Shown in pieces: positions 38,881 to 41,861 of a DNA stretch of 64,000 nt (positions within the stretch are counted from its first letter, which is position 1; every line of letters starts with the position of its first letter). Under the pieces are notes generated by a model. That model saw nothing but the letters and a program-made list of their open reading frames with translations, searched no databases and was not told the origin of the DNA. Source of the stretch: a virus. Its lineage: Duplodnaviria > Heunggongvirae > Uroviricota > Caudoviricetes. The stretch is taken from IMG/VR virus record IMGVR_UViG_3300012344_000014, positions 42,581-106,580 of that record; one strand, 5' to 3'. Both the position numbers and the translations under genes were made by a program.

Positions 38881-40083
38881 TTAATTTTTCAATTCGACGA
38901 GATACTTGACGGTCGTCTGGCATTCCTGATAGACGATGATCTCGTCGTTGCGGAGCATTGCCCCTTCATGCGCATGCAGACAGTTCGCGCCGGGACATGC
39001 GGCCTGAAGTTTTTCATAGTTGAAGGAGTTATAAGCGCCGGAGAAAGAATGAACGTCGTACGGTTTGCCGTAGGCGACCTCATACAGTCCCATAAAAGCG
39101 CTGTTCTCACTGCCTTTAGCCCAATAAGAACCGGAAAGGGAAGTGTAACCAAGCGACTTGCGCGCCTTTGTGGCGAAATAGATACCGTAACCGAACATCT
39201 TGCCGGTGATAACCGCGTTGGTGGGCTTGAGAACAAGGCCGCCGGTGAGGATGGACCACCAGTTTTCATTGCGGCTGCCATGCCAGAGCAGCTTGGTAGC
39301 GATATGAGCAGGCTCGACATAATTATCGAACGCCTGCTGGGTACGAAGGTTCCGAACCCGCCACGCCTGACGGAATTTATCGGCGCAGGAACCGAGGCAG
39401 GACTTGATTTTAATGATGTCTTCGGGCGTTGCTTCTTCAAAGACAAGACCGTTCGCCTCGAGGACGGTCTGCTGTACTGGAGCAGTATCGACAACTTTTA
39501 CCGGCTGCGGGACATAGACCTGACCGCGCATAATATCCAGCAGATCCTGTTCTCGGCGGATAATATCGCCGAACTGGTCGACCGAAGTGGCCAAATGAGA
39601 GCGGACGCTGGCCATGCGGCGGGGAATAATGCCGAACAATTCCGACAACAGCAGATTAAAATCATTCAAGCTGCGTTTATCAACCAGCGCGTTCAGCATG
39701 AGCTGCGCTTCATCGACCATCGCCATAGTGACCTTGTTGGACGAGATGGTGTAGTTCTCCGCAACCGCCTGCCGCGCCATTTCTCTCAGCCGGCGGACAA
39801 TTTCAGCGATGGGTTTCTGCAGGATCGGCCGATAATCATCTGTAACAGGCTGTACTTCAATCAGGTCTTGCACAAGCCATGTACGATCAACATACCCTTT
39901 GGAAAGCTTTTCGTTGTATTTCTTCTCCCAGTCCCGGAGGGAGTAAGTCCGGCGCTGCGGACTCGCCCCCACGCGGCCATAAGCCGCCTCCCAGACGAAG
40001 CCCATCGGGGTCATATCATAATATTTATTATTGTTGGCGTCGGCGGATATTTTCACCAGCCGCCGCGGCGTATATTCCATCAC
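38881..40083 (-). CDS. PARP-like ADP-ribosyltransferase (WGR plus PARP catalytic domain)
   Basis: WGR-like N-terminus (NNNKYYDM....WEAAYGRVG). Catalytic H-Y-E signature: LLWHGSR, GYGIYFA, LRNDEIIVY. Confidence 0.8.
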   Translation of the reverse strand: MMEYTPRRLVKISADANNNKYYDMTPMGFVWEAAYGRVGASPQRRTYSLRDWEKKYNEKLSKGYVDRTWLVQDLIEVQPVTDDYRPILQKPIAEIVRRLREMARQAVAENYTISSNKVTMAMVDEAQLMLNALVDKRSLNDFNLLLSELFGIIPRRMASVRSHLATSVDQFGDIIRREQDLLDIMRGQVYVPQPVKVVDTAPVQQTVLEANGLVFEEATPEDIIKIKSCLGSCADKFRQAWRVRNLRTQQAFDNYVEPAHIATKLLWHGSRNENWWSILTGGLVLKPTNAVITGKMFGYGIYFATKARKSLGYTSLSGSYWAKGSENSAFMGLYEVAYGKPYDVHSFSGAYNSFNYEKLQAACPGANCLHAHEGAMLRNDEIIVYQECQTTVKYLVELKN

Positions 40084-40535
40084 AGCGTATACACCAGAAT
40101 ATCGACGCGCGTATCCTCAAAGGTTTCGAGAATCAGCTCACGAACATCATCCCAGTTCAAACGATCGAGCCCGCAGCCGATGCGCGGCATGGCGAGGCGG
40201 GTGATCCCACGCTCCTGAATGTGCCGGCGGAGATCGAACAGAGCGGCTCCAAGCGTTTCAAGCGTGGGTTTTTCATAGCACCGTTCTTTGGTGACGAGGT
40301 TATAGACATCCAGCACAGGGAGCGCGCAAGGCCCCCAGCCTTCAAAATCATATTCGCCGTACATCTGGCGAAGCTTTTCCTTCATATTATACTGGGTATC
40401 AATCTGCCTGGCGACGCCAGCGCCCAGAGCAAAATCCGCGCTAATGCAATGCACAAGCGCCCAGCCGCGGGGCGCGCTGAGCAGATCGCCTTTGATTTCA
40501 GAGAACGTCAATTTCGGATTACAGGTTTCGCACAT
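40080..40535 (-). CDS. macro-domain protein (OARD1/TARG1-like ADP-ribose hydrolase)
   Basis: GDLL....ALVHCISADFALGAGVA...LAMPRIGCGLDRLNW; ATGA-type overlap with the PARP-like gene. Confidence 0.75.
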   Translation of the reverse strand: MCETCNPKLTFSEIKGDLLSAPRGWALVHCISADFALGAGVARQIDTQYNMKEKLRQMYGEYDFEGWGPCALPVLDVYNLVTKERCYEKPTLETLGAALFDLRRHIQERGITRLAMPRIGCGLDRLNWDDVRELILETFEDTRVDILVYTL

Positions 40536-40550
40536 ATCAATTTCCTCCTG

Positions 40551-41861
40551 TCAATAATAGCTGACTTCTTTGCCGGGCTCACGCAGATCTTTGAAAACCG
40601 GGAAACGGAGCGACTCGACGCCCGATTTATCCTGCGTGACCTCAAAATACTGCACCGTAGCGACCCGACCGATAAATTGGGACGGATTCGCCCAGACCTC
40701 GCGGCGGAAAGAATCCGTCATGCCGGAGCCGACACGGACGGGATTGCCCTTAAAATCCACCACCAATGCGCCGAGCGTGCCCTTGAAGCGGCCGCCGCCT
40801 TCTTCAACACCGGTGATTGCAAGATCACAATCCTGCATGGCTTTAACCTTAAGCAGATTCCGGGTGCGCTTGAACTCATAGGGCGCGTCGAGCAGGTTGA
40901 TCATCACGCCTTCATGATTGAGGCCGCGCTGAATTTCAAGATGGCGAAGGATTTCATTCGCATCGCCGCCGACATAGAGGACGGGAACGACCTTGATATG
41001 CTCGACATCATGGACGATCGCTTCCAACTCCTGCCGGCGAAGGTAATACGGCGTGGTGCAGTCATGGTTGAGAAAGACGCTGTAATCGACGATATCGAAA
41101 GCGTTGAAGACGACGCCGCGCTTCTCGCCATCCCGGCGGACGACCTGCACGGTGCGCTTATACTGCTCTTTGCTGGGAATATTCTCCCTGTCCGCGATGA
41201 GCAGCTCGCCGTCAAGCACAAAGCCAAGCGCGCCGCTATCGGTAAGCGTGAGAATATCATCTTCCAACTCGACAAGCCCTTCGATGGGCTGACCCTGCCG
41301 GGTATAGAAACGGGGCGACTTGCCCTTCTCGGCCACGCACTGACAGCGAACGCCGTCCAGCTTTTCGGTAAGCGCGAAACGTTTGCCTTCAACCGCTTCG
41401 GGATGCTCGAAATATTTCTCGGCCAGCATGCATTCATACACGGGAATAACCGTGCGGCCAAGAACCCTGTTGACCGTCTTGGCGGAAATACCGAGCGGAA
41501 TATCTTTACAGAGGAATCGAACAAGGAACTCGCGCAAGGCCGGGTCGGCTATATTGGAGAGCGTATATTGCAGCTTGGCGAGAACTTGCATATCTGCGGC
41601 GCGCAGGCCGGACAAATATTCGCACATGGTAAAAAGATCATCCCAATATGAAGCCAGCGTGATATTCAAATTTTTCTCAAGCGACCTGCGCTGAACATGA
41701 AAGACGACCATAGGATCGAGCAGAAGCTTCAGGGCGGAAAACGCCGCAGGACTCTGGGCGCAGGCCAGAATTTCCGGCTCTTTCGCCTTGCCTCGCGCGG
41801 TTTGAATCGCATCGAAGCAAGGCCTGATTTCGTGAAGCTGAGATTCAAGAGTGAAAGACAT
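40551..41861 (-). CDS. ATP-dependent DNA ligase
   Basis: Adenylation motif TEKLDGVR. AAGGA RBS before ATG 41861 (MSFTLESQ); the rest of track ORF 40551-42164 is an upstream extension. Confidence 0.85.
   Translation of the reverse strand: MSFTLESQLHEIRPCFDAIQTARGKAKEPEILACAQSPAAFSALKLLLDPMVVFHVQRRSLEKNLNITLASYWDDLFTMCEYLSGLRAADMQVLAKLQYTLSNIADPALREFLVRFLCKDIPLGISAKTVNRVLGRTVIPVYECMLAEKYFEHPEAVEGKRFALTEKLDGVRCQCVAEKGKSPRFYTRQGQPIEGLVELEDDILTLTDSGALGFVLDGELLIADRENIPSKEQYKRTVQVVRRDGEKRGVVFNAFDIVDYSVFLNHDCTTPYYLRRQELEAIVHDVEHIKVVPVLYVGGDANEILRHLEIQRGLNHEGVMINLLDAPYEFKRTRNLLKVKAMQDCDLAITGVEEGGGRFKGTLGALVVDFKGNPVRVGSGMTDSFRREVWANPSQFIGRVATVQYFEVTQDKSGVESLRFPVFKDLREPGKEVSYY

What the first reader, a model, noticed from the sequence alone, without database searches (positions are those of the whole stretch)
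38881..41861. PARP-like writer, macro-domain eraser and ATP ligase encoded as one cluster
The first gene combines a WGR-like domain with a PARP catalytic domain retaining the H-Y-E triad (LWHGSR, GIYFA, NDEIIVY). The next gene, coupled to it by overlap, is an OARD1/TARG1-type macro domain, and an ATP-dependent DNA ligase follows. This resembles a DNA-break-sensing ADP-ribosylation and repair unit. Alternatively the macro domain could counter host ADP-ribosylating defences such as DarT-type toxins. Both functional readings are inference.
Basis: partly seen in the sequence, partly recalled or inferred. Interest (0 to 1): 0.6.

Follow-up and report, generated by a model that had tools for sequence, protein, structure and literature searches.

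The report
Phage PARP and TARG1-eraser operon
A temperate phage carries, just after its DNA ligase gene, a tightly coupled gene pair for a PARP1/2/3-like ADP-ribose "writer" and a human-TARG1-like "eraser"; the pair is conserved across a large clade of uncultured Clostridia-type phages, but what it does during infection has never been tested.

Summary
Three minus-strand genes are transcribed in the order ATP-dependent DNA ligase (41861-40551), TARG1-type macrodomain (40535-40080), then PARP (40080-38881).

- **PARP:** it has the WGR, helical and ART domains of PARP1/2/3, and an H-Y-E triad invariant in 136 of 136 relatives.
- **Macro:** it is 37% identical to human TARG1 and keeps Lys84 and Asp125.
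- **Conserved unit:** this is the macro→PARP pair, not the trio.
  - A macro gene sits directly upstream of PARP in 41 of 56 sequence clusters of this phage clade.
  - Seen from the macro side, 73 of 77 assessable loci have PARP downstream.
  - Stop and start codons are coupled.
  - A different macro type occupies the same slot in three loci.
- **Ligase:** it is a recurrent but optional neighbour. It lies directly upstream in 27 of 78 loci, as either an ATP- or an NAD-dependent ligase.
- **More distant PARPs** (Cytophagales, Cellulophaga phage) lack the macro.

Best reading: a phage-encoded reversible ADP-ribosylation module, probably activated by DNA breaks, working in the replication and repair module. 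Activity, substrates and biological role are inferred, not shown. Phage PARPs and bacterial TARG1s were already known; I did not find the operon described. I rate it a new variant of a known kind, of moderate interest.

The parts
40551..41861 (-). ATP-dependent DNA ligase, 436 aa, with an N-terminal DNA-binding domain, a nucleotidyltransferase domain and an OB domain. It is the first gene of the apparent unit.
   Evidence: Pfam DNA_ligase_A_M at 1.4e-18 and DNA_ligase_OB_2 at 1.8e-13. PHROG 114 at 1e-80. The best solved relative, 6ras/6rar 'ATP-dependent DNA ligase', matches at E = 2e-32 over residues 41-427. Motif I, KLDG, is visible in the translation. A GAAAGGA ribosome-binding site precedes the ATG.
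40080..40535 (-). TARG1/OARD1-type macrodomain, 151 aa; the predicted ADP-ribosyl hydrolase ('eraser').
   Evidence: Full-length match to human TARG1 chains 4j5q/4j5r/2l8r at E = 7e-27; DarG macrodomains match at 1e-7. It is 54/144 identical to human TARG1 and keeps Lys84 (TKE) and Asp125 (GCGLDRL). PADLOC matches the DarG macro portion at 2.9e-16. AGGAGG lies 8 nt upstream of the ATG.
38881..40083 (-). PARP1/2/3-like ADP-ribosyltransferase with WGR, helical and ART domains ('writer'). It is 399 aa from the ATG at 40080, or 400 aa from the GTG at 40083.
   Evidence: Pfam PARP at 1.3e-21 and WGR at 25.6 bits. The H, Y, Y and E residues align to PARP1/2. A family profile aligns collinearly with the WGR-HD-CAT chains of PARP2. 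The AF2 model (pLDDT 85.5) matches PARP1 WGR-HD-CAT chains at TM 0.66-0.70. H-Y-E is invariant in 136/136 sequences.
40078..40083 (-). Macro stop / PARP start junction (GTGATG), indicating translational coupling. No separate Shine-Dalgarno site is evident for PARP.
   Evidence: Read directly from the sequence. In relatives the macro stop codon is embedded in or abuts the PARP ribosome-binding site (e.g. TAAGGAG, then 5-8 nt, then ATG) or overlaps the ATG (TAATG).
42178..42196 (-). Terminator-like hairpin plus T-run between the upstream PAPS-reductase-like gene and the ligase. It may mark the upstream edge of a ligase-macro-PARP transcription unit.
   Evidence: Consensus scan only. No convincing sigma-70-type promoter was found in the 41862-42177 spacer.
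38815..38839 (.). GC-rich 11-bp hairpin 42 nt downstream of the PARP stop codon; possible end of the unit.
   Evidence: The T-tract is on the plus-strand side, so its function as a minus-strand terminator is uncertain.

Best explanation
The core is a two-gene, phage-encoded reversible ADP-ribosylation module that sits in the DNA replication and repair block of a temperate phage of about 110-120 kb.

**How I think it works**
- The PARP has the same three-domain layout as PARP2/PARP3 and the C-terminal half of PARP1: a WGR break-binding domain, an autoinhibitory helical domain and an H-Y-E ART domain.
- By homology it should stay inactive until its WGR domain binds a DNA nick or end.
- It should then transfer ADP-ribose from NAD+ onto itself, onto nearby proteins (on acidic residues, since no HPF1 is expected) or onto terminal DNA phosphates.
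- The TARG1-type macrodomain is translated first from the same mRNA. It removes ester- and phosphate-linked ADP-ribose, which is the chemistry such a PARP makes, and so resets the system.
- In this phage and about a third of relatives the pair sits directly behind the DNA ligase gene. That fits a role at nicks and breaks in replicating, recombining or host-damaged phage DNA.

**Shown here:** domain architecture, catalytic residues, the conserved coupled synteny, and the position within the replication module.

**Inferred:** enzymatic activity, DNA dependence, mono- versus poly-ADP-ribosylation, substrates and biological role.
For: **Architecture and residues**
- Pfam PARP and WGR hits.
- H/Y/Y/E align with PARP1/2.
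- The profile is collinear with PARP2 WGR-HD-CAT, including the HD 'IPxxxG' segment.
- An AF2 model with pLDDT 85.5 matches PARP1/2 WGR-HD-CAT chains bound to DNA breaks, with TM up to 0.70.
- H-Y-E and the [Y/W]GR motif are conserved across 136 sequences.

**Eraser**
- Full-length TARG1 homologue with Lys84 and Asp125. Lys84 is kept in 60/62 and Asp125 in 50/62 family members.

**Coupling**
- In the clade with at least 47% PARP identity, 41/56 clusters have a macro gene directly upstream and 48/56 have one within the flank. Among more distant PARPs, 0/48 clusters have a TARG1-like macro.
- From the macro side, 59 loci have PARP adjacent, 14 have it after one inserted homing-endonuclease gene, and 4 have none.
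- The stop/start junction is coupled throughout.
- A generic, non-TARG1 macro fills the same slot in L040, L042 and L057.

**Context**
- The surrounding genes are primase-helicase, SSB, a PD-(D/E)XK nuclease, ligase, DnaE, ThyX and dUTPase.
- A ligase is the most frequent immediate upstream neighbour: 17 NAD-dependent and 10 ATP-dependent out of 78.
- Cellulophaga phage phi4:1 has its PARP one gene away from its ligase.

**Literature**
- Bacterial WGR-HD-ART PARPs (HaPARP, CdPARP) are DNA-dependent in vitro (PMC5966428, PMC8120803).
- PARP1-3 modify DNA-end phosphates, and TARG1 reverses the PARP3 product (PMC8385414).
- A bacterial TARG1 removes both mono- and poly-ADP-ribose (PMC6397177).
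Against: - There are no biochemical or genetic data for any member of this clade.
- Pfam does not call PARP_reg. The WGR hit is weak, and the motif is YGR rather than WGR.
- The macro falls 0.1 bit below Pfam's own cut-off.
- The ligase is absent from about two thirds of loci, and ligase homologues occur without the pair. Part of the ligase link may therefore simply reflect a shared module.
- Eight of 56 clade clusters, and all of the Cytophagales-type PARPs, keep H-Y-E with no macro in the flank.
- No reader domain, PARG or NAD+ salvage gene turned up among the roughly 45 window ORFs scanned.
- H-Y-E does not separate poly- from mono-ADP-ribosylating enzymes.
Confidence: 0.5

Rival explanations
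1. Host-takeover enzyme. Like T4 Alt, ModA and ModB, the PARP ADP-ribosylates host proteins such as the transcription or translation machinery to redirect the cell. The macro only limits collateral modification of phage proteins or of the enzyme itself.
For: This is the function proposed for phage PARPs in comparative surveys (PMC7824862, PMC9503650). The pair behaves as a mobile two-gene cassette with variable neighbours. No conserved partner lies downstream of PARP.
Against: The WGR and helical domains point to activation by nucleic-acid breaks, not to a constitutive effector. The genes are not near the head or packaging genes, where injected ARTs are usually encoded (PMC9503650); they lie inside the replication block. 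The preferred adjacency to ligase genes is left unexplained.
Confidence: 0.15
2. Toxin-antitoxin-like, exclusion or abortive-infection module of a temperate phage. PARP is a toxin that drains NAD+ or modifies DNA or protein, held in check by the upstream macro 'antitoxin', in analogy to DarT-DarG. It would act in prophage maintenance or against superinfecting phages.
For: The gene order is antidote first with translational coupling. The macro is of the TARG1/DarG type. The phage is temperate and carries another Abi/TA gene, AbiEii. The pair moves as a cassette.
Against: PARP has no match in PADLOC. The macro lacks DarG's toxin-binding C-terminal domain, scoring 48.8 bits against a cut-off of 250. 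PARPs with an intact H-Y-E triad exist with no macro in the flank in 8 clade clusters and in all Cytophagales loci. The pair is co-oriented with, and embedded among, lytic replication genes rather than sitting in the lysogeny or moron region.
Confidence: 0.12
3. The macro works independently as a counter-defence that strips ADP-ribose placed on phage DNA or proteins by host systems such as DarT2. PARP is functionally unrelated.
For: TARG1/DarG-type macrodomains share the catalytic Lys (PMC8385414). Phages do carry orphan antitoxin-like erasers against DarTG1 (PMC11825919). Stand-alone TARG1/Poa1p-like macros occur in 209 cultured phage records, mostly from genera absent from the 16 records that carry a PARP.
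Against: For this particular subfamily, 73 of 77 assessable viral loci have PARP just downstream, with coupled translation. An unrelated macro type replaces it in the same slot next to PARP.
Confidence: 0.08

Closest known systems
Human PARP2/PARP3 and the WGR-HD-CAT half of PARP1 (clade-1, DNA-break-activated PARPs)
   Same: Same order of WGR, helical and ART domains. The H-Y-E triad, the second nicotinamide-stacking Tyr, the NNNKYY...GRVG WGR motifs and the HD 'IPxxxG' segment all align. The model matches DNA-break-bound PARP1/2 chains.
   Different: Only about 17-20% identical overall. There are no zinc fingers, BRCT domain or N-terminal tail. The motif is YGR instead of WGR. The residue equivalent to PARP1 Tyr986 is Asn. 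The context is viral and prokaryotic, with no HPF1. Whether it makes polymer or single units is unknown.
Bacterial PARPs shown active in vitro: Herpetosiphon aurantiacus PARP and Clostridioides difficile CD160 PARP (PMC5966428, PMC8120803)
   Same: Prokaryotic proteins of about 400-450 aa with WGR, a helical domain and ART. Both are DNA-dependent and inhibited by PARP inhibitors in vitro. They are the best functional precedent.
   Different: Those two belong to a different clade ('Clade 2', with a Pfam-recognisable PARP_reg) and are partnered with a PARG (DUF2263). The window protein fits the untested 'Clade 1.2 Clostridiales' type, which has WGR and the catalytic domain but no Pfam PARP_reg. 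It is phage-borne and partnered with a TARG1-type macro.
Human TARG1/OARD1 and Fusobacterium mortiferum TARG1 (PMC6397177)
   Same: A single-domain macro of about 150 aa, 37% identical to human TARG1, with the Lys84/Asp125 catalytic pair. FmTARG1 shows that bacterial versions can remove both mono- and poly-ADP-ribose.
   Different: FmTARG1 sits next to an immunity-protein-51 gene, not a PARP. The phage protein is untested. In 12 of 62 family members the Asp is replaced.
DarT-DarG toxin-antitoxin system
   Same: An ART gene paired with a TARG1-like macro that reverses its product. The macro matches the DarG macrodomain models.
   Different: There is no DarT: the ART is a WGR-PARP. The macro has no DarT-binding C-terminal domain. 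The gene order is reversed, and the pair lies in a phage replication module.
Annotated phage PARPs: Cellulophaga phage phi4:1 gp031, Klebsiella phage FBKp34 gp111, Xanthomonas phage XacN1 ORF414 (PHROG 23333)
   Same: Full-length homologues at 25-30% identity. In phi4:1 the PARP lies one gene from a DNA ligase.
   Different: None has an adjacent TARG1-like macro. The Cellulophaga/Cytophagales type is instead followed by a conserved small protein of unknown function.

Membership tests
PARP family, clade-1 DNA-dependent type (WGR-HD-ART) | ART catalytic domain with the H-Y-E triad | tested here: met
   Pfam PF00644 at E = 1.3e-21. His267, Tyr301 and Glu380 align to the catalytic residues of PARP1/2. 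They are invariant in 136/136 relatives.
PARP family, clade-1 DNA-dependent type (WGR-HD-ART) | N-terminal WGR domain | tested here: met
   PF05406 at 25.6 bits against a cut-off of 22. The NNNKYY and YGRVG motifs align to the PARP2 WGR. In the model, residues 1-75 have pLDDT of about 86-96.
PARP family, clade-1 DNA-dependent type (WGR-HD-ART) | Helical regulatory (HD / PARP_reg) domain between WGR and ART | tested here: met
   Pfam PARP_reg is not called. However, profile positions 119-260 align to the HD of PARP1/2. The model has helices at 89-109, 119-133, 138-151 and 167-187. It matches HD+ART fragments at TMt 0.60-0.66 and WGR-HD-CAT chains at TMq up to 0.70.
PARP family, clade-1 DNA-dependent type (WGR-HD-ART) | NAD+-dependent (auto)ADP-ribosylation stimulated by DNA breaks, and polymer formation | not testable with these tools
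   Needs enzyme assays. H-Y-E is necessary but not sufficient for making polymer.
TARG1/OARD1-type macrodomain hydrolases | Single macro fold with full-length similarity to TARG1 | tested here: met
   phmmer against human TARG1 chains gives E = 7e-27 over residues 12-151; 54/144 residues are identical.
TARG1/OARD1-type macrodomain hydrolases | Catalytic Lys84 and Asp125 (numbering from PMC8120803) | tested here: met
   Both are conserved in the window protein (TKE; GCGLDRL). Lys is kept in 60/62 and Asp in 50/62 family members.
TARG1/OARD1-type macrodomain hydrolases | Hydrolysis of Glu/Asp-linked or phosphate-linked ADP-ribose, or of OAADPr | not testable with these tools
   Needs biochemistry.
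DarG antitoxin (DarTG) | Macrodomain plus a C-terminal DarT-binding domain, with an adjacent DarT | tested here: not met
   Only the macro portion matches: PADLOC DarG model positions 6-143 of 329, and NCBIfam DarG at 48.8 bits against a cut-off of 250. The protein is 151 aa. Its neighbour is a PARP with no PADLOC hit.
ATP-dependent DNA ligase (three-domain bacterial/phage type) | Nucleotidyltransferase domain with the KxDG motif, an OB domain and an N-terminal DNA-binding domain | tested here: met
   PF01068 and PF14743. KLDG is in the translation. The match to 6ras covers residues 41-427 at E = 2e-32.
Bacterial PARP-PARG poly(ADP-ribose) system (H. aurantiacus, C. difficile CD160) | PARG (DUF2263) encoded with the PARP | tested here: inconclusive
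   No PARG flanks the PARP; the adjacent eraser is TARG1-type. About 45 of the window's ORFs were scanned without a PARG hit. The rest of the window and the rest of the phage genome were not scanned.

The most novel reading that the evidence does not exclude
The pair carries out reversible ADP-ribosylation of DNA itself. The phage PARP caps 5'/3'-phosphates at nicks or ends of phage DNA, shielding them from host exonucleases or gating when they can be sealed. The TARG1-type enzyme uncaps them so that the neighbouring ligase (ATP- or NAD-dependent) can join them. This would be the first physiological role for PARP-type ADP-ribosylation of DNA ends, an activity known so far only in vitro for PARP1-3 (PMC8385414).
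Probability: 0.15. Interest if true: 0.8.

Novelty: new variant of a known kind. Interest (0 to 1): 0.5.

Why it matters
What prokaryotic and viral PARPs do is an open question. Only two bacterial enzymes have been assayed, both in vitro and both from a different clade with a PARG partner.

This analysis defines a minimal, self-contained PARP plus TARG1 operon:
- It is abundant in metagenomes: thousands of PARP and over a thousand macro sequence clusters.
- It is carried by large phages, apparently of Clostridia, judging by the MAG labels.
- It is repeatedly placed next to DNA ligase genes.

It offers a tractable system, with no HPF1, chromatin or paralogues, for asking three things:
- what a break-sensing PARP does in a bacterial cell;
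- whether DNA-end ADP-ribosylation has a physiological role;
- how the eukaryotic PARP/TARG1 toolkit relates to phage versions, given that the macro is 37% identical to the human enzyme.

It also runs against the generalisation that phage macrodomains mostly target soluble ADP-ribose derivatives (PMC9503650).

Tried and rejected
- **Nucleotide search.** Searching the three genes against 50,697 phage records found no match.
- **Small proteins after other phage PARPs.** I tested whether the roughly 155-aa proteins that follow PARP in Cellulophaga phi4:1 and Klebsiella FBKp34 are divergent macros. They have no BLASTP or Pfam similarity. The Cellulophaga one belongs to a separate conserved family.
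- **First AF2 model.** Built from 36 close homologues, it was poor: pLDDT 67.9, with the catalytic core below 50. Its fold matches had TM of about 0.3. I replaced it with a 72-sequence alignment that includes Cytophagales PARPs.
- **Single-sequence locus search with the macro.** It found nothing because the peptide patterns were too specific. It was redone with an alignment.
- **Ligase-seeded search.** It returned 10 loci, none with macro or PARP. I therefore rejected 'obligate trio'.
- **Inactive PARP in macro-less loci.** I tested whether loci without a macro carry inactivated PARPs, which a toxin-antitoxin logic would predict. They do not: all have H-Y-E.
- **Defence-system membership.** PARP and ligase have no PADLOC hit. 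The macro hits only the DarG macro portion.
- **Rfam.** A scan of the window found nothing.
- **Other ADP-ribose or NAD+ genes.** None was found among the scanned window ORFs.
- **Profile search of the Cytophagales partner protein against the PDB.** No significant hit.
- **Uncultured huge phage LR756500.1.** It has the closest PARP among deposited phage records, but no macro or ligase within 6 kb.
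Full report
**What is there**

The region holds three minus-strand ORFs:
- 41861-40551, 436 aa;
- 40535-40080, 151 aa;
- 40083/40080-38881, 400 or 399 aa.

Independent gene calls on 107-119 kb metagenomic contigs carrying the identical PARP protein give the same three products in the same order.

Signals read from the sequence:
- The ligase ATG is preceded by GAAAGGA.
- The macro ATG is preceded by AGGAGG at 8 nt.
- The PARP start overlaps the macro stop (GTGATG) and has no obvious Shine-Dalgarno site of its own.

A terminator-like hairpin lies between the upstream PAPS-reductase-like gene and the ligase (42196-42178). 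Another hairpin lies 42 nt after the PARP stop (38815-38839). Both come from a consensus scan only.

**The three proteins**

*PARP*
- Pfam finds the catalytic domain at E = 1.3e-21 and WGR at 25.6 bits against a cut-off of 22.
- PHROG 23333 matches over the full length at 5e-50.
- Against solved structures, the protein aligns to PARP1 and PARP2 as follows:
  - LLWHGSR aligns to LLWHGSR;
  - GYGIYFA aligns to GKGIYFA;
  - the second Tyr (LGYT) aligns to the Tyr of SANYC;
  - NDEIIVY aligns to YNEYIVY, Glu on Glu.
- A 36-sequence family profile aligns collinearly to PARP2 WGR-HD-CAT chains in three segments: WGR, HD with the first half of ART, and the C-terminal strand.
- A first AF2 model was poor. 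A second, from a 72-sequence alignment spanning two clades, reached pLDDT 85.5 and pTM 0.76.
- The second model's best matches are PARP1 and PARP2 WGR-HD-CAT chains bound to DNA breaks. TMq is 0.70 for 4opx_C, 0.66 for 4dqy_C and 0.60 for 6x0l_P. HD+ART fragments of PARP1 and PARP3 follow.
- The three-domain architecture is therefore supported even though Pfam does not call PARP_reg.
- His, Tyr and Glu are invariant in the window protein and all 135 related loci. The WGR motif is mostly YGR, as already noted for bacterial PARPs (PMC5966428).

*Macro*
- It scores 21.9 bits in Pfam, just under the 22-bit cut-off.
- It matches human TARG1/OARD1 chains over their whole length at E = 7e-27. DarG macrodomains match at 1e-7.
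- It is 54/144 identical to human TARG1.
- It retains the catalytic pair Lys84 and Asp125 (residue numbering from PMC8120803).

*Ligase*
- It has the adenylation and OB domains, the KLDG motif, and a full-length relative among three-domain ATP-dependent ligases (6ras, E = 2e-32).

**The genome context is a temperate phage**

The window encodes:
- tail-fibre proteins, a large serine integrase, NrdD, a primase-helicase and a DNA methyltransferase;
- SSB, AbiEii and three Bro-N/KilAC antirepressors;
- ClpP and a SpoIID-SH3 lysin;
- a PD-(D/E)XK nuclease and an SPFH protein;
- an intein-containing DnaE, ThyX and dUTPase.

The trio sits inside this replication and nucleotide-metabolism block. No deposited phage resembles it at the DNA level.

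**Co-occurrence, seen from the PARP side**

Seeding with PARP gave 77 IMG/VR loci and 55 loci from species-representative genomes. The genome loci are mostly Clostridia MAGs, a few Firmicutes isolates and many Cytophagales chromosomes. Clustering the PARPs at 95% identity gives 106 clusters.

Among the 56 assessable clusters with at least 47% identity to the window PARP:
- 40 have a macro found with the window query directly upstream on the same strand;
- 6 have it 0.2-4.5 kb upstream;
- 10 gave no hit to the window macro.

Further findings on the macro itself:
- In L040 and L042, two of the 40 clusters above, the macro is in fact a generic Pfam Macro rather than the TARG1 type.
- L057, scored 'none' with the TARG1 query, has such a generic macro in the same slot.
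- L044 has one two genes downstream.
- Overall, 41/56 clusters have a macro directly upstream and 48/56 have one within the flank.

Among the 48 clusters below 47% identity (Cytophagales, Cellulophaga, Klebsiella and Xanthomonas phages, huge phages):
- none has a TARG1-like macro in the flank;
- only Klebsiella phage FBKp34 has a generic macro, 2.4 kb away.

**Co-occurrence, seen from the macro side**

An alignment-seeded scan returned the best 80 of 153 viral loci. Of the 79 new loci analysed:
- 59 have PARP immediately downstream;
- 14 have PARP after one intervening gene;
- 4 have none within 4 kb;
- 2 end at the contig edge.

In the two of the 14 interrupted loci that I examined, the intervening gene is a free-standing homing endonuclease, either HNH-AP2 or GIY-YIG/NUMOD. 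These look like selfish insertions into an otherwise contiguous pair.

At the junction, the macro stop codon lies in or next to the PARP ribosome-binding site (TAAGGAG, then 5-8 nt, then ATG) or overlaps the ATG.

More distant TARG1/Poa1p-like macros occur in 209 cultured phage records, mostly from genera absent from the 16 records that carry a PARP. The PARP linkage is therefore a property of this subfamily, not of phage macros in general.

**The ligase**

- Among 88 distinct macro+PARP loci, 37 have a DNA ligase somewhere in the 4-6 kb flank.
- Unbiased clustering of the gene immediately upstream of the macro ranks an NAD-dependent LigA first (17 of 78) and the ATP-dependent ligase second (10 of 78). 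No other family exceeds 6 (LigA domains confirmed).
- No gene family dominates downstream of PARP.
- Cellulophaga phage phi4:1 has its PARP one gene from its ligase.
- In L056 a LigA directly abuts a PARP with no macro between them.
- Conversely, ten ligase-seeded loci (38-48% identity), six with PD-(D/E)XK and four with DnaE homologues in the flank, lack macro and PARP.

The ligase is therefore a preferred but dispensable neighbour. The macro-PARP pair behaves as a cassette that often lands behind whichever ligase the phage has.

**Mechanism**

*Shown:* architecture, catalytic residues, coupled synteny and module position.

*Inferred from named precedents:*
- WGR-HD-ART PARPs are autoinhibited by the helical domain and activated when WGR binds DNA breaks (PMC8385414).
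- The two assayed bacterial homologues need DNA for activity (PMC5966428, PMC8120803).
- Without HPF1 these enzymes modify acidic residues. They can also modify terminal DNA phosphates in vitro, and TARG1 reverses ester-linked mono-ADP-ribose and the PARP3 DNA-end product (PMC8385414).
- TARG1 can take off whole chains (PMC6397177).

A TARG1-type partner is therefore chemically the right eraser for this kind of writer. Pairing with TARG1 rather than PARG hints at mono- or short-chain modification, though that is speculation.

I put about 0.85 on the two genes being a functional writer-eraser pair. I put about 0.6 on activation by nucleic-acid breaks. I put about 0.4 on a role in phage DNA replication or repair linked to ligation.

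**Rivals**

- *Host takeover*, as suggested for phage PARPs in surveys (PMC7824862, PMC9503650). It does not explain the WGR-HD layout or the ligase adjacency.
- *A toxin-antitoxin or exclusion module.* The antidote-first order and the DarG-like macro fit. However, PARP has no defence-database match, the macro lacks DarG's second domain, and PARPs with an intact triad occur without a macro.
- *An independent anti-DarT macro.* This is chemically possible and has a precedent in orphan NADAR counter-defences (PMC11825919). It is at odds with the near-obligate PARP linkage.

**Novelty**

Already in the literature:
- Phage PARPs have been listed before: Aeromonas phage Aeh1 and Cellulophaga phi4:1 (PMC4245714), and jumbo phages with the 'PART' family (PMC7824862, PMC9503650).
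- Clostridiales WGR-PARPs without a Pfam PARP_reg form 'Clade 1.2' in PMC5966428.
- Bacterial TARG1-like proteins, mostly from Firmicutes, are catalogued in PMC6397177.

In the papers and passages I could search I found no description of a conserved macro→PARP operon in phages, nor of its association with ligase genes. I cannot exclude that one exists in literature not held here.

I rate it a new variant of a known kind. The proteins belong to known families. The eraser type, the viral setting and the conserved operon are the new elements.

Noticed in passing
L001 7151-7615 (Cellulophaga phage phi4:1 gp030); L102-L135 at about 7100-7540; L072 3302-3670; L074 2318-2671; L133 7101-7538: PARPs of the Bacteroidota type have no macro nearby. 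This covers Cytophagales chromosomes, Cellulophaga phage, two IMG/VR contigs and a Neisseriaceae MAG. In 31 loci they have nearby, in nearly all cases just downstream, a conserved protein of about 90-150 aa with no Pfam or PDB match; the only hint is a weak similarity to the arginine-repressor winged helix (E about 1). In L121 it is fused to a WGR-like segment. It is a second, uncharacterised PARP partner.
   Followed up: partly
L157 4453-5238; L166 4450-5334: Free-standing homing endonucleases (HNH-AP2, and GIY-YIG with NUMOD repeats) are inserted exactly between the macro and PARP genes in some relatives. Another HNH-type ORF follows PARP in L166.
   Followed up: partly
L040 4053-4508; L042 5543-6001; L057 5553-5957; L044 7695-8174: A generic Pfam Macro protein that lacks the TARG1 Lys replaces the TARG1-type macro next to PARP. 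In three loci it is in the same upstream slot; in L044 it is two genes downstream. This looks like non-orthologous displacement of the eraser.
   Followed up: partly
L157 1996-3996, and 16 other loci such as L033-L036: An NAD-dependent DNA ligase (LigA, with a BRCT domain) sits directly upstream of the macro-PARP pair in place of the ATP-dependent ligase. The macros of the L033-L036/L060 group have Gly at the Asp125 position.
   Followed up: partly
window 32578-37494 (-): The phage DnaE (Pol III alpha) carries an intein with an endonuclease-like insert (Pfam Intein_splicing on the identical gene in L136).
   Followed up: no
window 48030-49544 (-): A DUF2828/DUF7788 protein (PHROG 850, 'RNA-binding protein', possibly Ro60/TROVE-like) lies in the replication block. 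Rfam found no Y-RNA or any other RNA family in the window.
   Followed up: partly
window 42202-42660 and 42715-43116 (-): A PAPS-reductase-like gene appears split into two ORFs just upstream of the ligase. Only the downstream ORF has the Pfam hit, and to the C-terminal part of the domain. The split could be a frameshift, a programmed event or two separate genes.
   Followed up: no
window 37166-38071 (+): A gene with PASTA and peptidoglycan-binding domains, apparently secreted or membrane-bound, lies on the opposite strand between PARP and DnaE. It looks like a moron. About 800 nt of apparently non-coding sequence (38072-38880) separates it from PARP.
   Followed up: no
window 54012-55567 (-); 57907-62172 (-); 15920-17605 (-): Lysogeny and conflict genes: the AbiEii toxin with a likely AbiEi partner, three Bro-N/KilAC antirepressor paralogues, and a large serine integrase.
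   Followed up: no
L094 4977-5552: In Clostridium tagluense a cytidylyltransferase-like gene (possibly an NMN adenylyltransferase) lies about 0.4 kb upstream of a macro-less PARP. This may link the PARP to NAD+ supply.
   Followed up: no
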